Shown here one piece after another: positions 2,894 to 24,992 of a stretch of DNA of 24,992 nt. Made by a program: the position numbers and the translations under genes. The stretch's first letter is position 1. Every line of letters starts with the position of its first letter. The DNA is from an uncultured virus (IMG/VR IMGVR_UViG_3300007177_000029) (Duplodnaviria > Heunggongvirae > Uroviricota > Caudoviricetes > Crassvirales), in IMG/VR virus record IMGVR_UViG_3300007177_000029; one strand, written 5' to 3'. The notes below the pieces were generated by a model, which was given only the letters and a program-made list of their open reading frames with translations, had not been told where the DNA came from and made no database searches.

Positions 2894-2906
2894 TTTTTTT
2901 ATTTTA

Positions 2907-2938
2907 AAAAGCCGATAATAATTAAATTATCGGCTTTT
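2907..2938 (-). terminator. strong intergenic hairpin / terminator downstream of the Ubl gene
   Basis: AAAAGCCGATAAT-AATTAA-ATTATCGGCTTTT, 13-bp perfect inverted repeat with T-runs on both strands. Confidence 0.75.
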
Positions 2939-2945
2939 GTTTTTA

Positions 2946-3044
2946 TTAGATTAAATTGTTTAAAATTTCAGAATTTATTATAGAAATTAATTTTTTTTGA
3001 TAAATTTCTAATATGTTTTCTTCTAAAACATCTAAATCTTGCAT
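2946..3044 (-). CDS. small 32-aa ORF translationally coupled to the Ubl gene
   Basis: ATG overlaps the Ubl stop (TAATG). Translation MQDLDVLEENILEIYQKKLISIINSEILNNLI; fills the gap up to the hairpin. Confidence 0.5.
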   Translation of the reverse strand: MQDLDVLEENILEIYQKKLISIINSEILNNLI

Positions 3045-3274
3045 TATTTTCCTGATTTAATTTCTTTTGTAGCTAAAAATATAATAGCTTCGCCTGAAGG
3101 TAATTGAGCATTGTCGTCTTCTAAACTAACTCTTGTTTCTCTAACCATACCTCTTAAATTAGCTGTAATGAAATCTGAATTTTCAGATTTTAATTGACCC
3201 CATGTTGTTGCACTTGTGATAACTTCTTTTCTTACTTGAGAATTTGAGTTAAATAATGTGATTTTTCTAGACAT
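3044..3274 (-). CDS. ubiquitin-like (beta-grasp) protein
   Basis: 76 aa with a beta-beta-alpha-beta-beta pattern (RKITLF / RKEVIT / TTWGQLKSE / AIIFLA) and C-terminus KEIKSGK. Located upstream of E2-like, JAB and E1 genes. Confidence 0.7.
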   Translation of the reverse strand: MSRKITLFNSNSQVRKEVITSATTWGQLKSENSDFITANLRGMVRETRVSLEDDNAQLPSGEAIIFLATKEIKSGK

Positions 3275-3296
3275 AATTGTAAATTTTAAATTGTTA

Positions 3297-3902
3297 TTAT
3301 TTTGTTGTTATTAAATTTGTTTCGTTAGCAACTAAAGTGCTATCTAAATAGTTAATATAAAATTCCATAAATTCGTTGTATAATTCTTGAAAATCGTATT
3401 TATCTAATACATTATCTGCATTATCTAACTTATCTTCAATAGCTATTCTTATAGAATTATAATTTATATTAGTGCTTATACCATGTTTTATTAATTTTTT
3501 AATAAGAGAATCTTCCATATTTAAGATTTTAAAATAAACACCAGGATTTTCTTTATTAATAGAAGTATATTTACCATTTATACTTAAAGGTAAAGGAAAC
3601 ATTACACTTACATTATCATCTTCAATTAATTCTTTTTTTACCATAAAATCTTGAATTGTTTGAAGAGGATTAATCCAATCATATTTCCTTTTACTATTCC
3701 TTACAAAATGAAACCCTATTAATAAAGGATTGCTTAGTTGTCTTTTTTCTATTTCATTTGTAAATTGATTTTTAATTTCATTAATTTTTTCATCACTATC
3801 TTTATAATATTTTAAAGATAATTTACTGCTAATTAACATTTTTCCTGTCCATCTTTTACTGTTTTTAGAAGATGGTACATTATTCGGAATAAAAAATATC
3901 AT
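3297..3902 (-). CDS. RusA-like Holliday junction resolvase
   Basis: N-terminal NVPSSKNS and RKYDWINPLQTIQDFMVKKELIEDDN, matching the RusA D-x2-N...D...I-x-DD pattern. Confidence 0.7.
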   Translation of the reverse strand: MIFFIPNNVPSSKNSKRWTGKMLISSKLSLKYYKDSDEKINEIKNQFTNEIEKRQLSNPLLIGFHFVRNSKRKYDWINPLQTIQDFMVKKELIEDDNVSVMFPLPLSINGKYTSINKENPGVYFKILNMEDSLIKKLIKHGISTNINYNSIRIAIEDKLDNADNVLDKYDFQELYNEFMEFYINYLDSTLVANETNLITTK

Positions 3903-4881
3903 TTAATTTTTTGTTAATTAAAGATTTTAACTTTTCAGGATTATTAAATTTTATAAAATCAGAAGGGTCTTTATATTCATCAATAAAAATTGATTTAAAT
4001 CCATAAACTTCTTCATATTTTTTACTAGCTTCTTTACCAGGTTCATCATTATCGAAAAGCATTATAATGTTACTACAAACTTTTTCTTTTAACTTATTTA
4101 TTATAGTTTCATTCAATAAAACTGTTTCTGATGCAGGTGCTATAGCAGTAAATCCTATACTATATAATGACATTACATCTTTTAAAGATGATGTTATAAA
4201 CAATATTTTTGGATTTTGTTTAATAGCTTGATTAATACCTTGTAAAACATTAGAATCTGTATTACTAAACCATTTGTATTTTAAATTTAAAGGATTTAAT
4301 ATTTTATAAAATTTAATATTATTTTTAATACCTAATTTATAAGCAAAACATAAATTTTTATTATAAATCCAATTACCATTAATAGAATACGCATTTAAAG
4401 ATTTTACATTATAAAATTCTAATATTTTTTTATCAATATTATACTGTTTCCAATATTCTAAATCATTTTTAGAAAAGTTTTTAATATTGATATTTATTAT
4501 ACATTTTTCTTTAGGTAAAATAGTTAAATCATGTATTATAGGTTTTTCTATTATATCACTTTTAATAGAACTTGTTCCTTTAAGATTTAAATTAAAATCA
4601 TTATTTATAATATTTAAAGCGGTAATAAAATCACAATTATATTTAGCTCTTACATACTGAAAACAATTATAATAATGACCTGTAGAAAAATCTTTATAAA
4701 CTAAACCTTTTGATAAATTAGATATTATACAACTTGGTTTTTTATCTTCTCTTAATTCAGAACAAAATAAATTTCCAAGTTCTTTAAAAGAAGAACAATA
4801 AAATTTAAATATATCATATTCTGATATTAATTCAAGAATTTTTTGAAAAGTTAAAGCTTCTTTTGGTTTATTACCATACAT
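3880..4881 (-). CDS. DNA primase (DnaG-like, C-terminal TOPRIM)
   Basis: N-terminal Zn-binding-like region (CSELREDKKPSC...YKDFSTG), TOPRIM motifs ITSSLKD and LFDNDEPG, KDPSD; typical crAss-like primase layout. Confidence 0.88.
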   Translation of the reverse strand: MYGNKPKEALTFQKILELISEYDIFKFYCSSFKELGNLFCSELREDKKPSCIISNLSKGLVYKDFSTGHYYNCFQYVRAKYNCDFITALNIINNDFNLNLKGTSSIKSDIIEKPIIHDLTILPKEKCIININIKNFSKNDLEYWKQYNIDKKILEFYNVKSLNAYSINGNWIYNKNLCFAYKLGIKNNIKFYKILNPLNLKYKWFSNTDSNVLQGINQAIKQNPKILFITSSLKDVMSLYSIGFTAIAPASETVLLNETIINKLKEKVCSNIIMLFDNDEPGKEASKKYEEVYGFKSIFIDEYKDPSDFIKFNNPEKLKSLINKKLNDIFYSE

Positions 4882-13207: not shown

Positions 13208-13479
13208 AAATCTAATTTTTTAATTAAATTATTTAACATTTCTAAATTATTTTTTATTTCTTCAACAGAATTTAATGCTTTTTCTTTACTTTTTTTTATA
13301 TCTTCACTTTCATCAAAATCTGGATTAATTATTTTTATTACTTCTAAAATTTTTTCAGTGTCATTAAATTTTTTTATTGATTCTAAATAATGTTCCCTAT
13401 TAGATTTTAAAAGTTTTAATAAATAATTATATTCTTCTACACTAACATTATTATTTTCTAGAATTTTTAATATGCTCAT
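13204..13479 (-). CDS. hypothetical coiled-coil protein
   Basis: ORF track, ATGA overlap with next gene. Confidence 0.65.
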   Translation of the reverse strand: MSILKILENNNVSVEEYNYLLKLLKSNREHYLESIKKFNDTEKILEVIKIINPDFDESEDIKKSKEKALNSVEEIKNNLEMLNNLIKKLDL

Positions 13480-13582
13480 TATGTTTTTTCTTTAATTGTT
13501 TGAGTAATTCTTTTTCTTCTTTAGTTTTTTTAAAAACTGATTGGTCTACTAATTTATTAGTATTAATTATTATATTTTCCAT
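13451..13582 (-). CDS. small basic hypothetical protein (43 aa)
   Basis: Manual translation MENIIINTNKLVDQSVFKKTKEEKELLKQLKKKHNEHIKNSRK; bridges the gap between two ORFs. Confidence 0.45.
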   Translation of the reverse strand: MENIIINTNKLVDQSVFKKTKEEKELLKQLKKKHNEHIKNSRK

Positions 13583-20317: not shown

Positions 20318-20614
20318 TTATTTATTTAAATTGTTGATGTTTTTATAATACCAATCAGTTATACTATTATAATGAAAATGCTCAGGTTTTTCTACACCAA
20401 ACTCATTATTTTTAATAAAAAAAGATACTTCTTTTAATTTATCGTAGTATTTTATATTATGAAACACACCACCTGTATTACTATCATAATATGCGTGTTT
20501 AAGTTGATTAATTAACCCCTCTAACTCTTTAAATTTTTCAATATTAAATTCATTAGTAGTTAGTTTACTAACTGAACTAGATTTAAACAATTTGTTTATA
20601 ATTTTTGTAACCAT
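20318..20614 (-). CDS. hypothetical protein
   Basis: ORF track. Confidence 0.6.
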   Translation of the reverse strand: MVTKIINKLFKSSSVSKLTTNEFNIEKFKELEGLINQLKHAYYDSNTGGVFHNIKYYDKLKEVSFFIKNNEFGVEKPEHFHYNSITDWYYKNINNLNK

Positions 20615-20615
20615 A

Positions 20616-20957
20616 TTATTTATTCAAATTAGTTAAAACGTGAGTAATTGCTTCTAAATAAGCTTCTGTTGGTGAATTAAATTCTTTATTGAATGTATAG
20701 TTTGATTTGAAAGTATGACCGTCATTTACATCTGAAGCATGGTCTATAAATTTAATTACTTCAATCCAAATTTTATGCTTTTCATACAACCACATAATTA
20801 CCTGAGCTATTGTAGGGCAAGAATAAGTATTACCAAAAATAAAGTCATCATTTTCATCTTTACCTATAGTGCTTATAGTTTCATAATCTATGTTATTTTG
20901 TGGAAAACCTTTTTCAGCTAATAATTTAGCTATTTCGTATTTTACTTCTTGTACCAT
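20616..20957 (-). CDS. hypothetical phage protein
   Basis: EIAKLLAEKGF, PTIAQVIMWLYEKHKIWIEV and SPTEAYLEAI resemble a small-protein family common in Bacteroidota phages (recalled, not searched). Confidence 0.75.
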   Translation of the reverse strand: MVQEVKYEIAKLLAEKGFPQNNIDYETISTIGKDENDDFIFGNTYSCPTIAQVIMWLYEKHKIWIEVIKFIDHASDVNDGHTFKSNYTFNKEFNSPTEAYLEAITHVLTNLNK

Positions 20958-21064
20958 CTTGTTTAGTTTTAAGTTAATAAAAACAGCTATTAACCTTAGC
21001 TGTAAGGTAATTATGTATCGCTAATTAAACGGTAATTATTAACTTTAATTACAAAGTATAAAAA

Positions 21065-21082
21065 TGCTAGTCTTTTCTAGCA
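21065..21082 (-). terminator. hairpin with T-tail downstream of the tRNA-like RNA
   Basis: Minus strand TGCTAG-AAAAGA-CTAGCA-TTTTT. Confidence 0.55.
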
Positions 21083-21133
21083 GTCAACCATCTATCATCT
21101 TATTGGGTTATCCCTCAATGTAGCAGGATTTTG

Positions 21134-21264
21134 TGGACAAGGTAAGATTTGAACTTACATTACACATTTGGACTGTCTGTATATCATAAACTATATCCTG
21201 TTCCCATTCTGTCCTGAATTAGAAATCAATAGTTTATAGTGTCTACCAATTTCACCACTTGTCC
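21134..21264 (-). ncRNA. tRNA-like RNA (131 nt) with Leu-type D arm, T arm and a greatly extended anticodon arm
   Basis: Acceptor GGACAAG/CTTGTCC plus discriminator A; D arm TG-GTG-AAATTGGTAGA-CAC; T arm GTAAG-TTCAAAT-CTTAC; long variable arm TATACA/TGTGTA; anticodon arm replaced by a ~54-nt hairpin; no encoded CCA. Confidence 0.75.
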
Positions 21265-21600
21265 TATCTTTTTCTGTTTGTTGTTGTATTACAAAAGATA
21301 AACGTTATACAATCTCAATCTCCTTATAAATCCTCCTTGTTCACAAGACAAAAAACTGGGGAGATATGTTTTTACTTTATTAGCACCCTCGTACCTTTAC
21401 ATTAGTTGCTTGGCATCCGCAGTAAAGAGTAGGGTCACGTAGTTATTCTAACTTATTACAGACGTTTATTATAAACTTTTTTATTGTATTAGAACTTGTA
21501 TTAACTACTTGCTGAGAACTCCCAAAGGTTTATAGCAACTTATCTCAAATACATTTGCATCCTTTCCTAGTATTACTATTAGGTTTCTATCAGGGTTTAG
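21265..21600 (-). ncRNA. candidate structured non-coding RNA, segment downstream of the HNH gene
   Basis: No credible ORF, higher GC than flanks, serial stems: GTAGTTA/TAACTAC with TTCTAA/TTAGAA, ACCCT/AGGGT with CTTTAC/GTAAAG, ATCTCC/GGAGAT, TATCTTTT/AAAAGATA. Confidence 0.5.
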
Positions 21601-21606
21601 ATTATT

Positions 21607-22092
21607 TTAAATATGTTTCCAATTTGTTCTTTGTATTATTCCTGCAATACAACCATAAGAAACATTATACAACTCTGCTAATTTTTGATAAGTTAATTTA
21701 TTTTCTGTTCTTTTTTTTCGTATTTCTAATACCTGTTCTTCTGTTAATACAGAAAAACCATTTTTAGAACCTTTGTTTGAAGCATTACCAAATTCATAAG
21801 CATGTTTATCATTTTCTTCTTTTGTAACCCATTCAAGATTATCTAAAGAATTGTTTTCTCTATTTGAATCTTTATGGTTGATAACATCTTTGTTTTCAGA
21901 ATTATCAATAAATGCAATTGCTATTAATCTATGTAACTGAAAGTTTTTAATTTCTGTTTTAGATTTGTACAATTGAATACCAATATATCCATCAGGTCTT
22001 TTAAAAGATTTTTTAATTCTTTTAGTTGAAATTCTCCTTACTATTCCTTCAGGATTTATTTCATAATCATAGTTTTCTATTTGTTTCCACAT
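21607..22092 (-). CDS. HNH homing endonuclease (NUMOD4-like N-terminus, HNH, C-terminal HTH)
   Basis: MWKQIENYDYEINPEG, HRLIAIAFI, VINHKDSNRENNSLDNLEWVTKEEN, C-terminal LTEEQVLEIR...LAELYNVS...W. ATG at 22092 fits the promoter position. Confidence 0.93.
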   Translation of the reverse strand: MWKQIENYDYEINPEGIVRRISTKRIKKSFKRPDGYIGIQLYKSKTEIKNFQLHRLIAIAFIDNSENKDVINHKDSNRENNSLDNLEWVTKEENDKHAYEFGNASNKGSKNGFSVLTEEQVLEIRKKRTENKLTYQKLAELYNVSYGCIAGIIQRTNWKHI

Positions 22093-22106
22093 AATAATAT
22101 TTTTTA

Positions 22107-22138
22107 CAAATGTACAAATAAAAGTGATTAATACCAAG
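22107..22138 (-). promoter_or_regulatory. Bacteroidota sigma-A type promoter for the HNH gene
   Basis: Minus strand CTTG (22138-22135), 20-nt spacer, TACATTTG (22114-22107); matches the -33 TTG / -7 TAnnTTTG consensus, 14 nt before the ATG. Confidence 0.7.
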
Positions 22139-22149
22139 CAATTTTATTA

Positions 22150-22188
22150 AAAAATACTCCACCCATTATTTCTAACTAGGGTAAGTAT
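22150..22188 (-). terminator. terminator-like hairpin insulating the HNH promoter
   Basis: Minus strand ATACTTACCC...GGGTGGAGTAT followed by TTTTT. Confidence 0.5.
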
Positions 22189-22736
22189 AAGAACTCATTT
22201 GTGTTGTAGTGCTACTCCTAACAATCATTAACACTCTTTCCGCTTTCCATTCCTTTCTCAAGGGAACAACACATCTAGGATTACTCCATTAAATTTTGAT
22301 TCTAAATACCTTATGCAGTGGATTAGCACCTAAGCTTAGATTAATCAGTAATTAGAGCTTTTAACTGCTATATGATAACCTCTAAGATATTACCTAGACT
22401 AACATTTACAGTAATTAGCTGTGTATTAGCTTACTTCAATTTCTGTAGGATTTCTGGTATGAGTAATTCCACTAACTCATATCTGTTAAGTACAGTTACT
22501 AAGAATCATTTTATAACACCTTGTCAATTCAAGGTTAACATCCAATTTATAGTGCTTTCAATGTTTAGTCACTTTAATTTAAAAATCCTCAATGTCTCCA
22601 AGTAGAGTAAATTGTAATACAGCTAAAAAATAAAACCAATATAGGGTTTACTTATTTTTTAAGTTACTAATTTACCTAACTTCAAAGCTTACATTCTTGG
22701 TATGTACTTGTGCTTATCCATTAGCATTGAGGATTT
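22188..22736 (-). ncRNA. candidate structured non-coding RNA, segment upstream of the HNH gene
   Basis: No minus-strand ORF; 12-bp inverted repeat 22583-22594/22725-22736, TATGAGT/ACTCATA, CCTTG/CAAGG, and a pseudoknotted junction at 22188-22273. Confidence 0.5.
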
Positions 22737-22745
22737 ATATTTTAA

Positions 22746-22919
22746 TTATTTACCATTTAATTTTTTATCTAAAAGAATACCAATAGATATTGCAAATGAT
22801 ATTGGTGAAAATATTATTACCATTGTAGATAATGGAAAATCATTTTCAGCTTTTCTGTATAAATGTACTCCTATTGTTGCTAAGTAAGTAAATACAATGT
22901 ATAAAATTATTATTGCCAT
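22746..22919 (-). CDS. small membrane protein (57 aa, 2 TM)
   Basis: Manual translation MAIIILYIVFTYLATIGVHLYRKAENDFPLSTMVIIFSPISFAISIGILLDKKLNGK. Confidence 0.65.
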   Translation of the reverse strand: MAIIILYIVFTYLATIGVHLYRKAENDFPLSTMVIIFSPISFAISIGILLDKKLNGK

Positions 22920-22939
22920 TTTAATTTAGTTTTAAGTTG

Positions 22940-23122
22940 TTAATCTTTTATTGATTCTATTATTTCTTTAGGTAATTTTTCAAATTTAATTACTTTAAAT
23001 TTGTTTTCAGATATTATTTTAAACCAGTAAGGTATATTGTAATAATTATTTTTACCATCATTAACTTTTGATGAATTACTTTCTAGAAATTCAACTTGTT
23101 CTTTTGTTAATTCTATTATCAT
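22940..23122 (-). CDS. hypothetical protein
   Basis: ORF track; YYNIPYWFK, FEKLPKE. Confidence 0.65.
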   Translation of the reverse strand: MIIELTKEQVEFLESNSSKVNDGKNNYYNIPYWFKIISENKFKVIKFEKLPKEIIESIKD

Positions 23123-23170
23123 TTGTATTAGGTTTATTAACTGTTTTTATGTGTAAAACACTTTTGTGTT

Positions 23171-23242
23171 TTAAATGACCATATCTCTTACCATAAACTT
23201 ACAATTGTTGCAATTGCAGTCTATTTTTTGAAGCTCTTCCAT
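23171..23242 (-). pseudogene. truncated Cys-rich ORF remnant
   Basis: MEELQKIDCNCNNCKFMVRDMVI stops after 23 codons; good A-rich start context. Confidence 0.35.
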
Positions 23243-23297
23243 TTTTTTAGTTGTGTAAGCTATAGAATTTTAATTGTTGTAATGTAGTTTTATAATT

Positions 23298-23329
23298 AAG
23301 AAATGGATATACTAAATACCCATTTCTTA
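23298..23329 (-). terminator. intergenic hairpin
   Basis: AAGAAATGG...CCATTTCTT inverted repeat. Confidence 0.5.
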
Positions 23330-23368
23330 TTTATATTATTAAATAACTATGTATAAATAATATTATAG

Positions 23369-23704
23369 TTAAATTTTAAAACCTAATTTTTCTGCTTCTT
23401 CAACAGTTAATAACTTTGAACTTTCTCCTAAATAATCTGATTTACTTTTTAAATATGCAATACCTATTAATGTAGGAGAATATATTACTACGAATTTTTT
23501 AAATTCATCTAATCTATTTTCATTATACACTTCAAATGTATTATAACTATTTGAATCTAATGCTAATATTTTTTTAGTTTTTTCGTTTTCAAATATTGCT
23601 GCTACATCATTTTTAAAAACACAAGTGCTTATTTCATTATTTACGTTTATGTATTTTACTCCTACTTTAAATTCATTAAATGGAATAGTGTTATTTTTTT
23701 TCAT
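23369..23704 (-). CDS. hypothetical protein
   Basis: ORF track. Confidence 0.65.
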   Translation of the reverse strand: MKKNNTIPFNEFKVGVKYINVNNEISTCVFKNDVAAIFENEKTKKILALDSNSYNTFEVYNENRLDEFKKFVVIYSPTLIGIAYLKSKSDYLGESSKLLTVEEAEKLGFKI

Positions 23705-23716
23705 GGTAATTAATTT

Positions 23717-23920
23717 TTAATGATTAAAACATTTGTTTAAGAAGTTTTCTAATTCCTCTTTTACTTTTTCTAATTCTTCTACTTTATTCTCAACGTCATT
23801 GTATGTAATGCCATTTTCTCTAGCTTGAATTAGTTGATTTTCTAGTATTTTAAATTCTAGTAATAATTCTTTGTATAAATTAGTTATCTTTTCTACTGTT
23901 TCTAAAACTGGTTTTAACAT
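23717..23920 (-). CDS. hypothetical coiled-coil protein
   Basis: ORF track. Confidence 0.6.
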   Translation of the reverse strand: MLKPVLETVEKITNLYKELLLEFKILENQLIQARENGITYNDVENKVEELEKVKEELENFLNKCFNH

Positions 23921-24183
23921 AAGCTATAATTTAATTAATAATTCTATTTTTAAGGTTGTTTTTAATCATGGTTTAAATTTAATGTTTACTTATGTTTTAA
24001 ATTCAATCTTTACTCTTTGTTTTGATTGGTTTTTAAAATGATAAGTTATTTATTATTTAAACTTTTGGTTTTTTGAAATTGGTTAAATTTGTGGATTTTT
24101 TGTTGGGAGTTGATAATCAGTAACTTACACCACTTTACTTAAAGTAAAAATACAATTTAAACTCCTAAAACTTTATCAAATAC

Positions 24184-24275
24184 CGTGATATTTTTAACTA
24201 CTAACAACTAAAAAAGTTATCGTGATATTTTTATTTGCTTTAAATTAAAAAGCTAATTCAATATCGTGATATTTT
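24184..24275. repeat. three direct repeats of CGTGATATTTT
   Basis: Copies start at 24184, 24221 and 24265 within a ~490-bp non-coding AT-rich gap. Confidence 0.8.
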
Positions 24276-24371
24276 AAGTTGCTTTTTTGAGCATTGTATA
24301 AACGGAGTAATTTAAAAGAATTTATTGCGTTTTGCATACAATGGGTTGCTATTCATTACATTAAAATAAAA

Positions 24372-24407
24372 AAAACAGAATAGTCAACACACTGACTACT
24401 CTGTTTT
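24372..24407 (-). terminator. terminator downstream of the 165-aa gene
   Basis: AAAACAGAATAGTCA-ACACAC-TGACTACTCTGTTTT stem with a long T-run on the minus strand. Confidence 0.7.
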
Positions 24408-24412
24408 AAATT

Positions 24413-24910
24413 TTAAAATGTATCTTCAGCGATATTTTCTGATTGTACACTATTAGCATTAGCTAACACATCTGAAGCATCAGAAGATGCAATTTGAGTT
24501 TGAACAAATAATGGCATACCATTTTTCATTAAAACGTTACCATTTTTATCCAAAGATGGTTCTTGAGTTTCCCATTGAGGAGTAAAGCTTTCAATTAAGA
24601 TAATCTTAGCTTTAACTCCAAATAATGATTCAATCAATGCTTTTGTGTCAGCTTCTGATAATTGAGTTTCAAACATATCAGGAGTTAAACCTGTAGCTTC
24701 AGGGTCAATGTTTAAAATAGCTTTTCTTGTGCTATTATTACCACCTTTTAAGTTAGTAGCACTAACTAAGATGTAAAACTTACCATTTTCTTTAACACCA
24801 ACAAATGCTCCTGCATTTGCTCCTGTTAAAAATTGTTCATGTTTCCATGAGGTTGATGCTACTTTACTTTTAAGTTGAGCAATCTTTTGGGTGAATGTTA
24901 ATTCTGCCAT
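24413..24910 (-). CDS. hypothetical protein, possible ssDNA-binding protein
   Basis: 165 aa, beta-rich, acidic tail ending AEDTF, stand-alone with its own terminator. SSB function is inference. Confidence 0.5.
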   Translation of the reverse strand: MAELTFTQKIAQLKSKVASTSWKHEQFLTGANAGAFVGVKENGKFYILVSATNLKGGNNSTRKAILNIDPEATGLTPDMFETQLSEADTKALIESLFGVKAKIILIESFTPQWETQEPSLDKNGNVLMKNGMPLFVQTQIASSDASDVLANANSVQSENIAEDTF

Positions 24911-24992
24911 AATAAATAGTCTTTCAGATTAAAGTGCTAACGGACTAGAGCACTAAAGGTTAAATTAAAAAAAAGAATAAAAAGAAAAAAAA

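What the first reader, a model, noticed from the sequence alone, without database searches (positions are those of the whole stretch)
21134..21264. tRNA mimic with intact acceptor, D and T arms but a ~54-nt hairpin in place of the anticodon arm
Seen (minus strand): GGACAAG-TG-GTGAAATTGGTAGACAC-[TATAAACTAT...TTCTAATTC-AGGACA-GAATGGGAA...ATAGTTTATG]-A-TATACA-GACAGTCCAAA-TGTGTA-AT-GTAAGTTCAAATCTTAC-CTTGTCC-A. The acceptor and T stems are perfect, which argues against simple decay. The GGAC in the apical loop could kiss GTCC in the variable loop. Established: LeuRS recognises discriminator A73 and the elbow rather than the anticodon, and the D arm here is Leu-like; the insert is far too short for a group I intron. 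Inference: a non-decoding tRNA-shaped RNA, possibly a decoy for anticodon nucleases, an aminoacylatable mimic, or an RNase P/Z processing signal that releases neighbouring RNAs.
Basis: partly seen in the sequence, partly recalled or inferred. Interest (0 to 1): 0.8.

Follow-up and report, generated by a model that had tools for sequence, protein, structure and literature searches.

The report
Anticodon-less leucine-tRNA-shaped phage RNA gene
A crAss-like phage carries a gene for an RNA that looks like a leucine tRNA but has a long hairpin where the anticodon should be, so it cannot read codons; it belongs to a large, unnamed family of such phage RNAs whose job is unknown.

Summary
Window 21134-21264 (minus strand) matches the Rfam tRNA model at 41.3 bits. 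It has a perfect 7-bp acceptor stem, A73, a Leu-type D arm, a perfect T arm and a 6-bp variable arm. A 52-nt imperfect hairpin replaces the 5-bp stem and 7-nt anticodon loop.

It is not a one-off. My own scans of viral contigs found the same Leu frame with unrelated 60-150-nt inserts in 72 of 115 and 22 of 22 loci. This scan had already met the family on other DNA.

New here is the context. The gene closes an RNA-only unit of a crAss-like phage: ncRNA module A, an HNH endonuclease cassette, ncRNA module B, the tRNA-like gene, then two terminators. The modules are homologous to an intergenic stretch of Cellulophaga phage phi14:2, a phage reported to have abundant intergenic RNAs. Module B is followed by a tRNA-shaped gene in 29 of 75 loci and preceded by one in 9 of 75.

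Most likely the tRNA frame gives RNase P and 3' processing, stability and perhaps leucylation, and the arm is lineage-specific cargo. No relative shares the arm, so its fold is untested, and expression of this gene is unshown. An intron or pseudogene reading is unlikely.

The parts
21134..21264 (-). tRNA-Leu-shaped, anticodon-less RNA gene (131 nt, no encoded CCA)
   Evidence: Rfam RF00005 at 41.3 bits over model positions 1-71; cloverleaf minimum-free-energy fold; ARAGORN default makes no call
21258..21264 (-). Acceptor stem, 5' strand GGACAAG; it pairs 7 of 7 with 21135-21141, and A73 is at 21134
21239..21255 (-). Leu-type D arm GUGA-AAUUGGUAGA-CAC with A14, A15, G18G19 and A20a
   Evidence: The first 26 nt are identical to a normal metagenomic tRNA-Leu(CAG), L152. 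Identity rules come from PMC9976931.
21186..21237 (-). Extended arm in place of the anticodon arm: 9-bp stem AUAAACUAU/AUAGUUUAU, internal loop, two 4-bp helices, hexaloop AGGACA (21210-21215)
   Evidence: Fold. The sequence is unique in the window and has no match in any fetched locus.
21195..21228 (-). Candidate kink-turn: UGAU (21225-21228) opposite CAG-GA-U (21195-21200), between a 5-bp and a 9-bp helix
   Evidence: Pattern test. The signature is found in the window. It appears in 27 of 20000 shuffles with 5-bp stems on both sides and in 1515 of 20000 with 3-bp stems. It is not enriched in the family (3 of 64 against 2.9 expected). The k-turn consensus is recalled from memory; this part is inference only.
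21161..21183 (-). Long variable arm: 6-bp stem UAUACA/UGUGUA with 11-nt loop GACAGUCCAAA
21142..21158 (-). T arm GUAAG-UUCAAAU-CUUAC, preceded by U48 (21159)
21065..21082 (-). Terminator-like hairpin UGCUAG-AAAAGA-CUAGCA followed by a U run, 51 nt after the 3' end
   Evidence: DNA-run contigs of a relative match 21065-21106 with 0 or 1 differences (table 8).
20983..21003 (-). Second terminator-like hairpin followed by a U run
21265..21379 (-). 115-nt spacer between ncRNA module B and the tRNA-like gene; not conserved in phi14:2
21380..21521 (-). ncRNA module B (CAGCAAGUAGUUA ... ACUACGUGACCCUACUCU ... GAGGGUGCUAA)
   Evidence: blastn to phi14:2 3195-3288 at 74%; its blocks recur in viral contigs
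21522..22189 (-). 668-nt cassette carrying an HNH endonuclease ORF (21607-22137); GAGTTCT is repeated at both junctions
   Evidence: PHROG 59 E 5e-42; Pfam HNH_3 at 40.5 bits; junctions; RNA-library contigs joining 21521 to 22250 with 43 other letters between, as in phi14:2, show forms without the cassette (table 5)
22190..22568 (-). ncRNA module A (CUAAACAUUGA ... AUGGAGUAAUCCUAGAUGUGUUG ... ACAACACAAAUGAGUUCU)
   Evidence: blastn to phi14:2 3111-3151 at 90% and 3183-3201 at 100%; 15 viral loci share the motif; contigs of two RNA libraries cover 22190-22594 with 3 to 5 differences

Best explanation
This is a working gene for a non-decoding RNA built on a leucine-tRNA frame. The frame comprises the acceptor stem, A73, a Leu-type D arm, the T arm, a long variable arm, and the core bases U8, A14, A15:U48 and G18G19. 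The anticodon arm is replaced by a 52-nt continuous helical arm with no anticodon loop.

The gene is one member of a widespread, uncatalogued family of phage RNAs that share this frame and carry unrelated inserts. Here it is the last gene of an RNA-only transcription unit of a crAss-like phage: ncRNA module A, an HNH cassette, ncRNA module B, the tRNA-like gene, then two terminators.

Proposed mechanism: the tRNA shape makes host RNase P cut at its 5' end, which also frees the upstream RNA. Host 3' trimming and CCA addition then finish the 3' end. This yields a stable L-shaped RNA that LeuRS can probably charge, because LeuRS does not read the anticodon. The arm is lineage-specific cargo that carries out the specific, still unknown task. 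It holds a candidate kink-turn that could fold the arm back toward the variable loop.

Shown here: the anatomy, the family, the synteny and the exchange of genes at this slot. Inferred: processing, charging and the role of the cargo.
For: Anatomy.

No anticodon: ARAGORN default makes no call.

Of these, 72 have a perfect 7-bp acceptor stem at the tRNA offsets, giving 63 unique sequences plus the window. For all 64, ARAGORN default calls none. In intron mode it, with anticodons scattered over many amino acids.

Frame conservation at positions the pattern did not fix:
- T-stem pairs formed in 56-62 of 64
- D-stem pair 11-24 is C-G in 57 and U-A in 5
- U8 in 63, G9 in 63, A14A15 in 63, U48 in 56, A73 in 47 of 64

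Family, second scan: the acceptor-plus-D-arm pattern gave 22 of 22 viral loci with forms of 94-200 nt, in 9 length classes on one frame.

Rfam check: RF00005 scores 9 of the 20 long forms I scanned at 33.7-40.6 bits. The window scores 41.3.

LeuRS rules: E. coli tRNA-Leu lacking the anticodon and variable arms is still charged if A73 and the D/T-loop contacts are kept (PMC9976931, passages).

Context: the flanks match phi14:2, and terminators follow the gene.

Slot: in 75 module-B loci with at least 700 nt on both sides, a same-strand tRNA, tmRNA or tRNA-like gene starts within 600 nt downstream in 29 and ends within 600 nt upstream in 9 (Fisher p 3e-4). AGTCAGG-type genes lie downstream in 13 and upstream in 0 (p 1.4e-4). 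Three of them start 4-6 nt after the last conserved block of module B.

Slot exchange: a DNA-run contig of a relative matches 21078-21131 and then continues into a different T arm plus CCTGACT-A acceptor strand. Homology breaks 2 nt after the discriminator (tables 7 and 8).
Against: I found no relative with the same arm, so there is no covariation test for the cargo.

The single-sequence folding z-score is -1.16.

The experimentally seen phage RNAs cited as closest (T5 RNA1 and RNA2, T4 rnaC and rnaD) are not matched by RF00005 at E up to 0.1. The link to RNAs known to be expressed is therefore only a resemblance.

In the family, 17 of 64 do not have A73.

Here 115 nt separate module B from the gene, against 4-6 nt in the tightest cases. 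A role in trimming module B is therefore less obvious in this phage.

The downstream bias could simply reflect operon order.

My family sets were selected by patterns that require the D and T loops, and one set was further filtered on a perfect acceptor stem. Those features are circular evidence for the family.
Confidence: 0.58

Rival explanations
1. The main role is punctuation. The tRNA shape is there chiefly so that RNase P and 3' processing enzymes cut the operon transcript and give the upstream ncRNA modules a defined 3' end. This would resemble the way mascRNA defines the 3' end of MALAT1. The arm itself would have no task.
For: Module B is followed by tRNA-shaped genes in 29 of 75 loci and preceded by one in 9 of 75. 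Three long tRNA-like genes start 4-6 nt after its last conserved block, and tmRNA genes start at +17 and +40. The gene here is the last one before two terminators.
Against: A plain tRNA, or a minihelix, would serve as a cut site. That does not explain a perfectly paired 9-bp extension, a retained variable arm, or the long structured inserts of other members. Here the spacer to module B is 115 nt. In 46 of 75 module-B loci no such gene was found within 600 nt downstream.
Confidence: 0.15
2. It is a decaying tRNA-Leu gene whose anticodon loop was disrupted by an insertion. It has no function of its own.
For: It is a single instance, and I found no orthologue with the same arm. The insert is AT-rich and the folding z-score is not significant. 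Normal 84-nt tRNA-Leu(CAG) genes with the same acceptor stem exist in metagenomes, and one has identical first 26 nt.
Against: Every frame helix is intact: 7 of 7, 3 of 3, 6 of 6 and 5 of 5 pairs. The anticodon stem is extended by 4 further perfect pairs, which a random insertion would not give. The insert is not a repeated element of the window. The same architecture is maintained in many phages. The slot is occupied by another tRNA-type gene in a relative.
Confidence: 0.12
3. It is a charged or chargeable tRNA mimic whose target is a tRNA-binding protein and not the ribosome. It could be a decoy for a defence toxin or enzyme that acts on the acceptor end or elbow, a sink for LeuRS, or a leucine donor for a non-ribosomal transferase.
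For: The Leu frame is one of the few that a synthetase charges without reading the anticodon (PMC9976931). A73 is present in 47 of 64 family members, and A15:U48 and G18G19 are kept. The acceptor sequence AGTCAGG/CCTGACT is identical in 25 of 64 unique members. That hints at sequence-specific recognition of the acceptor stem.
Against: No test of charging or binding was possible. The window's acceptor stem is not the AGTCAGG type. In the family, 17 of 64 lack A73. Core bases would also be kept for folding alone. A decoy for anticodon nucleases in particular lacks the loop those enzymes recognise.
Confidence: 0.1
4. It is a decoding tRNA with a short intron that is removed by an unknown phage or host activity.
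For: ARAGORN in intron mode can force a model. Removing 35 nt after U33 would leave the loop CU-UAU-AG on the 5-bp stem AUAAA/UUUAU (my reading).
Against: No group I or other ribozyme match appears at E up to 10, and the insert is far shorter than a group I core. The fold shows no bulge-helix-bulge motif. The only loop with U33 would give a UAU anticodon with G38 on a Leu-type class II body. Across the family, intron-mode calls give scattered anticodons.
Confidence: 0.04

Closest known systems
Phage T5 RNA1, RNA2 and RNA3 (AY543070, misc_RNA 30501-30644, 32959-33083, 33877-33949; annotated 'tRNA-like stable RNA with unknown functions')
   Same: They are phage-encoded, lie among tRNA genes next to an HNH homing endonuclease (TflI), are 73-144 nt long and have no known function. 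RNA1 carries the same D-arm core CGGAATTGGTAGACG and a T arm. The window's HNH protein is weakly similar to TflI: 32% over 66 aa, pairwise E 7e-6.
   Different: RF00005 does not match T5 RNA1 or RNA2 at E up to 0.1, whereas the window scores 41.3 bits. By my reading, the RNA1 acceptor stem has a terminal mismatch. There is no sequence similarity in the inserts. Homology is not shown.
Phage T4 species 1 and species 2 RNAs (rnaC, rnaD; AF158101 70908-71046, 71053-71171)
   Same: They are small stable RNAs encoded at the end of the phage tRNA cluster beside a homing endonuclease (SegB). Their roles are still unknown (PMC3014915 and PMC9697503, passages). rnaC ends in a T-arm-like hairpin.
   Different: They have no Leu-type D arm and no RF00005 match. 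They are late RNAs in T4 (PMC9697503).
Bacterial class II tRNA-Leu (Rfam RF00005)
   Same: It shares the acceptor stem, A73, D-loop AAUUGGUAGA, A15:U48, the T arm and a long variable arm. The first 26 nt are identical to a metagenomic tRNA-Leu(CAG).
   Different: There is no 5-bp stem with a 7-nt anticodon loop. A 52-nt arm stands in its place.
MALAT1-mascRNA and Arabidopsis GUT15 tRNA-like (tRNA-shaped modules that end a long non-coding RNA)
   Same: A tRNA-shaped module lies behind a long non-coding RNA and could set that RNA's 3' end through RNase P. This is a resemblance in how it works only. MALAT1 is recalled from memory; for GUT15 I saw only the search listing and abstract (PMC6152437).
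   Different: Those are eukaryotic with no sequence relation. Here 115 nt separate the two, and cleavage is untested.
Engineered 'tRNA scaffold' for expressing recombinant RNAs in E. coli (recalled; Ponchon and Dardel)
   Same: The cargo RNA replaces the anticodon stem-loop of a tRNA, so that the cell processes and stabilises it. This is the same design.
   Different: That scaffold is man-made. The natural family uses a Leu frame and keeps a variable arm in some members.
tmRNA and YrlA (tRNA-like domains with large inserts)
   Same: tmRNA is in effect a tRNA whose anticodon arm is replaced by a large insert. Phage tmRNA genes occupy the same slot behind module B in relatives and lie about 700 nt behind it in phi14:2.
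   Different: ARAGORN finds no tmRNA here. A full Leu-type D arm is present, and there is no room for a tag reading frame. YrlA (RF02553) gives no match at E up to 1, and its ends lie elsewhere in the fold (recalled).

Membership tests
Decoding class II tRNA-Leu | 7-bp acceptor stem with discriminator A73 | tested here: met
   GGACAAG/CUUGUCC pairs 7 of 7, with A at 21134
Decoding class II tRNA-Leu | Leu-type D arm with G18G19 and A20a, A15:U48, T loop UUCRAAU | tested here: met
   rules from PMC9976931
Decoding class II tRNA-Leu | 5-bp anticodon stem closing a 7-nt loop with U33 and a Leu anticodon | tested here: not met
   ARAGORN default makes no call. The fold shows a 9-bp stem, an internal loop and a hexaloop.
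Phage Leu-framed tRNA-like RNAs (uncatalogued; met earlier in this scan) | Acceptor stem, Leu-type D arm and T arm of a tRNA | tested here: met
   Compared with 63 other unique members.
Phage Leu-framed tRNA-like RNAs (uncatalogued; met earlier in this scan) | At least about 60 nt between the D and T arms with no canonical anticodon loop | tested here: met
   The insert here is 80 nt. ARAGORN default of 64.
Phage Leu-framed tRNA-like RNAs (uncatalogued; met earlier in this scan) | Phage-encoded and lying among other RNA genes | tested here: met
   crAss-like context. It sits behind ncRNA modules A and B, in the slot used by AGTCAGG-type members.
Phage Leu-framed tRNA-like RNAs (uncatalogued; met earlier in this scan) | Accumulates as a discrete processed RNA | not testable with these tools
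   Only assembled contigs of RNA libraries were available. These cannot show the ends of a small RNA.
tRNA with group I intron | Group I catalytic core of about 200 nt or more in the anticodon loop | tested here: not met
   No Rfam match other than tRNA at E up to 10 in 20500-24992. The possible insert is 35-54 nt.
tRNA with archaeal-type intron | Bulge-helix-bulge motif at the exon-intron junctions | tested here: not met
   The fold shows continuous pairing across the would-be junctions. The motif definition is recalled from memory.
tmRNA | Ala-type tRNA-like domain, tag reading frame and pseudoknots | tested here: not met
   ARAGORN finds no tmRNA in the window. Rfam tmRNA gives no match.
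YrlA (RF02553) | Match to the covariance model | tested here: not met
   No match at E up to 1 in 20900-21500
T5 RNA1-type stable RNA | Sequence or model-level homology to T5 RNA1 | tested here: inconclusive
   It shares the D-arm core and a T arm. However, T5 RNA1 is not matched by RF00005 at E up to 0.1, and blastn of the window gene against phages gave nothing.

The most novel reading that the evidence does not exclude
Phages use the leucine-tRNA frame as a plug-in chassis, chosen because LeuRS charges it without reading the anticodon. Whole genes are swapped at a fixed slot behind a conserved abundant early ncRNA, perhaps helped by the neighbouring homing endonuclease. The charged, anticodon-less RNA acts off the normal decoding path. 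It might work as a small tmRNA-like factor on ribosomes, as a leucine donor, or as a decoy for defence enzymes that attack tRNA ends. In this member a kink-turn would fold the cargo arm back onto the variable loop to make a compact new domain.
Probability: 0.25. Interest if true: 0.8.

Novelty: new variant of a known kind. Interest (0 to 1): 0.55.

Why it matters
Phage tRNA genes are usually read as codon-usage helpers or as replacements for tRNAs cut by host defences. A large family of phage RNAs that keep everything a tRNA needs to be processed and charged, but have dropped the anticodon, does not fit either reading. It points to a tRNA-based function outside decoding.

This case ties the family to a fixed place in the RNA islands of crAss-like phages. 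It sits directly behind homologues of an intergenic stretch of phi14:2, a phage reported to have abundant unexplained intergenic RNAs. It also shows that the slot is refilled with different tRNA-shaped genes.

That gives a route to experiments and a natural counterpart to the engineered tRNA scaffold used to express RNAs in bacteria. I found no cultured phage that carries such a gene, so one would first have to be identified.

I found no paper that describes the family. In PMC10690425 I read passages only. It mentions tRNA-like candidates in phages in general terms, and I did not see its supplementary tables.

Tried and rejected
Close relatives:
- blastn of the gene and megablast of the whole window against phages found nothing.
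- The 113-aa neighbour has no relative in viral contigs.
- An exact D-arm-to-T-loop pattern and the terminator pattern found nothing.
- The window's own assembly is not held. The nearest record, G001, is a 24.9-kb fragment with this one tRNA match.

Cargo:
- It has no blastn-short match in any fetched locus and no second copy in the window.
- I asked whether the arm and variable loop copy the RNA's own 5' and 3' ends. They do not beyond chance: 739 and 596 of 2000 shuffles score as well.
- Loop-loop GGAC/GUCC pairing gave 11% and 0.7% under two null models and remains undecided.
- The kink-turn signature is not enriched in the family: 3 of 64 against a shuffle mean of 2.9.

RNA libraries: contigs of three RNA runs and one DNA run were laid on 20950-22800. 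No RNA-library contig lay on the tRNA-like gene. Because these are assembled contigs, this says nothing about expression.

Host inference from the acceptor stem: the exact 26-mer is absent from genome contigs. The degenerate pattern hit 8 loci: 4 normal tRNA-Leu genes of Patescibacteria-type MAGs, one 94-nt form in a Sphingobacterium genome, one 145-nt form, one cut by a contig end and one without a matching 3' strand. This gives no host call.

Cultured carriers: blastn of two family members (L042, L233) against phages gave no match.

Other checks:
- Single-sequence folds of modules B and A are uninformative, with z-scores of -0.64 and +0.79.
- A group I intron reading of the HNH cassette has no Rfam support. 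A U before the cassette and a G at its end fit the splice-site rule in one of eight possible registers, which chance can give (my reading).

Full report
**Observation.** Rfam's tRNA model matches these exact coordinates end to end at 41.3 bits, against a gathering score of 29 (E 9.9e-6 for the window).
- The acceptor stem (GGACAAG/CUUGUCC) and T stem (GUAAG/CUUAC) are perfect.
- The D arm is GUGA-AAUUGGUAGA-CAC, the T loop is UUCAAAU and the discriminator is A.
- The variable arm has 6 bp and an 11-nt loop.
- The minimum-free-energy fold is a cloverleaf. Its anticodon-position arm has a 9-bp stem, a 4x6 internal loop, 4 bp, a 1x1 mismatch, 4 bp and a hexaloop.
- The folding z-score, -1.16, is not significant on its own.
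- ARAGORN in default mode sees no tRNA or tmRNA in the whole window. In intron mode it forces 'tRNA-Tyr(ata)' with a 37-nt intron at position 31/32.

**It is not a decoding tRNA.** No 7-nt loop closes the arm. If a piece were spliced out, the only 7-nt loop with U33 would be CU-UAU-AG on a Leu-type class II body. No ribozyme or intron family matches at E up to 10. The fold shows no bulge-helix-bulge.

- In 72 of these loci a perfect 7-bp acceptor stem sits at the tRNA offsets. That gives 63 unique sequences of 117-147 nt plus the window.
- ARAGORN default calls none of the 64. In intron mode it, with anticodons spread over many amino acids.
- Positions my pattern did not fix are conserved as in tRNA-Leu: U8 in 63, G9 in 63, A14A15 in 63, U48 in 56 and A73 in 47 of 64.
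- T-stem pairs are formed in 56-62 of 64. D-stem pair 11-24 is C-G in 57 and U-A in 5; the window has U-A.
- A second scan, for the acceptor stem plus D arm, gave 22 loci. All 22 hold forms of 94-200 nt, in nine length classes on one nearly constant frame.
- Rfam scores 9 of the 20 long forms I scanned at 33.7-40.6 bits.
- The same pattern in metagenome and genome contigs also finds ordinary 84-87-nt tRNA-Leu genes. One (L152) has the window's first 26 nt exactly.
- By insert-only folding, 33 of 64 inserts form two helices, 28 form one and 3 form three. Twelve of 64 fill the space as the window does, with one arm at the anticodon position and one at the variable position.

**Earlier notes of this scan.** They describe the same family on other DNA and name T5 RNA1-3 and T4 rnaC/rnaD as the closest known. 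I checked this.
- T5 annotates rna1 and rna2 as 'tRNA-like stable RNA with unknown functions'. T4 annotates rnaC and rnaD as small stable RNAs.
- Two papers say the T4 RNAs have unknown roles (PMC3014915 and PMC9697503, passages).
- T5 RNA1 shares the D-arm core and a T arm.
- RF00005 matches none of these four RNAs at E up to 0.1. The relation is therefore a resemblance, not shown homology.

**Context.** The window is a phage fragment whose nearest held record (G001) is 24.9 kb and rated 26% complete. It carries a replication module. Its PolA is closest to crAss-like phages at 30-33% identity.
- Upstream of the gene lies an HNH endonuclease ORF, flanked by non-coding sequence.
- Both flanks match Cellulophaga phage phi14:2 of the Crassvirales, where the two pieces abut. 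Window 22208-22190 equals phi14:2 3183-3201, and window 21521-21425 equals phi14:2 3195-3288.
- The window therefore holds a 668-nt HNH cassette with GAGTTCT at both junctions.
- The phi14:2 stretch 2905-3590 has only tiny opposite-strand ORFs.
- The bioRxiv preprint of Drobysheva et al. (10.1101/2020.03.07.982082, passages) reports that two long intergenic regions of phi14:2 (the g004-g005 and g005-g006 junctions) are transcribed above most genes from the earliest time point. Their function is unknown.
- That these junctions correspond to 2905-3590 and to the tmRNA region at 4031-4502 is my inference, prompted by earlier notes. I did not see the gene table.
- Following those notes and my own data, I read the stretch as two RNA modules. 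The cassette, and a shorter insertion in L172, sit at the same point.
- Contigs of two RNA libraries cover module A (22190-22594) with 3 to 5 differences. An RNA library can also contain DNA.
- Behind the tRNA-like gene stand two terminator-like hairpins.
- The unit therefore reads: module A, HNH cassette, module B, a 115-nt spacer, the tRNA-like gene, then the terminators.

**The slot.** A pattern for module B hit 115 viral loci, the number the scan lists. In the 75 with at least 700 nt on both sides:
- A same-strand tRNA, tmRNA or tRNA-like gene starts within 600 nt downstream in 29 and ends within 600 nt upstream in 9 (Fisher p 3e-4).
- Genes with the acceptor stem AGTCAGG/CCTGACT lie downstream in 13 and upstream in 0 (p 1.4e-4). 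Three of them start 4-6 nt after the last conserved block of module B.
- In a DNA run, a contig of a relative matches 21078-21131. It then continues into a different T arm and a CCTGACT-A strand, so homology breaks 2 nt after the discriminator. Another contig matches 21267-21334 and stops 3 nt before the 5' end.
- The slot is thus conserved while the gene in it is exchanged, with breakpoints at the ends of the mature RNA.

**Mechanism.** What the sequence shows is a complete set of features for RNase P recognition, the tRNA core fold and, by E. coli rules, leucylation. According to PMC9976931 (passages), A73, A15:U48, G18G19 and A20a are the Leu identity elements. The anticodon and variable arm are not, and minimal tRNA-Leu without those arms is still charged.

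I infer three things:
- The frame serves to excise, stabilise and possibly charge the RNA.
- The cut at its 5' end also releases the upstream RNAs.
- The arm is cargo.

The arm's internal loop fits a kink-turn signature: GGGAA-CAG-GA-U-AUAGUUUAU opposite AUAAACUAU-U-GA-UUUCU. This occurs in 27 of 20000 shuffles with 5-bp stems but in 1515 of 20000 with 3-bp stems, and the family shows no enrichment. The consensus is recalled from memory. A kink there could bring the apical GGAC to the variable-loop GUCC, but that pairing is not clearly beyond chance.

**Limits.**
- No relative shares the arm, so its fold has no comparative support.
- Expression of this gene is unshown.
- My family sets were chosen by patterns, and one was filtered on a perfect acceptor stem.
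- The downstream bias may reflect operon order and not a processing role.
- I found no paper describing the family. PMC10690425 speaks only generally of tRNA-like candidates (passages), and I did not see its supplements.

**Verdict.** This is a real, probably functional, non-decoding tRNA-Leu-framed RNA. It is a new variant of the little-understood phage 'tRNA-like stable RNAs'. It is of moderate to high interest as a member of a large undescribed family and for its fixed place in crAss-like RNA islands.

Noticed in passing
window 22190-22568 (-): ncRNA module A is homologous to phi14:2 3111-3201 and is found in 15 viral loci by a 23-nt motif. Contigs of two RNA libraries cover it with 3 to 5 differences. 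It is not in Rfam.
   Followed up: partly
window 21380-21521 (-); loci L178-L257: ncRNA module B (TGACCCTACTCT, 35-65 nt, AGGGTGCTAA) occurs in at least 115 viral contigs. It is followed by tRNA, tmRNA or tRNA-like genes far more often than it is preceded by them (29 against 9 of 75).
   Followed up: partly
window 21522-22189 (-): A 668-nt HNH endonuclease cassette is inserted exactly between modules A and B, with the 7-mer GAGTTCT at both junctions. L172 has a shorter insertion at the same point, and contigs from an RNA library (X19) lack the cassette. I could not decide whether it is a free-standing homing gene or an intron.
   Followed up: partly
loci L002-L116, L178-L257: The acceptor sequence AGTCAGG/CCTGACT, with A1-U72, is identical in 25 of 64 unique long tRNA-like RNAs from different phages. 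That is conservation of sequence, not just of pairing, and suggests a protein reads this stem.
   Followed up: no
L179, 257 nt after module B: This AGTCAGG-type member carries an extra insertion inside the D loop as well as one at the anticodon position, giving two cargo slots.
   Followed up: no
L162 (phi14:2) 4031-4502: A phage tmRNA scores 46 bits, just under Rfam's cut-off of 47. It lies under ORFs annotated as hypothetical proteins gp012-gp014. ARAGORN also calls tmRNA genes 17-147 nt behind module B in L178, L182, L233, L245 and L253, and a further tmRNA (flagged with an asterisk) 372 nt behind it in L232.
   Followed up: partly
L149 7817-8206: A distant PolA relative of this phage (36% identity) carries a GOLLD RNA (222 bits) upstream of its polymerase gene. 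L148 carries a 137-nt tRNA-like RNA at 13417-13553.
   Followed up: no
L152, L150, L153, L156, L159, L161: Normal 84-nt tRNA-Leu(CAG) genes have the window's acceptor stem. L152 is identical over the first 26 nt. Three are from Patescibacteria-group MAGs (L156, L159, L161) and three from unnamed metagenome contigs. I could not tell whether this reflects chance or capture of a cellular tRNA.
   Followed up: partly
L155 (Sphingobacterium allocomposti contig) and L130: The same 94-nt short member of the GGACAGG frame occurs in a bacterial genome and in a viral contig. It is probably a prophage copy.
   Followed up: no
window 20983-21003 and 21065-21082 (-): Two tandem terminator-like hairpins close the RNA unit before the next ORF, which starts at 20957.
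   Followed up: partly
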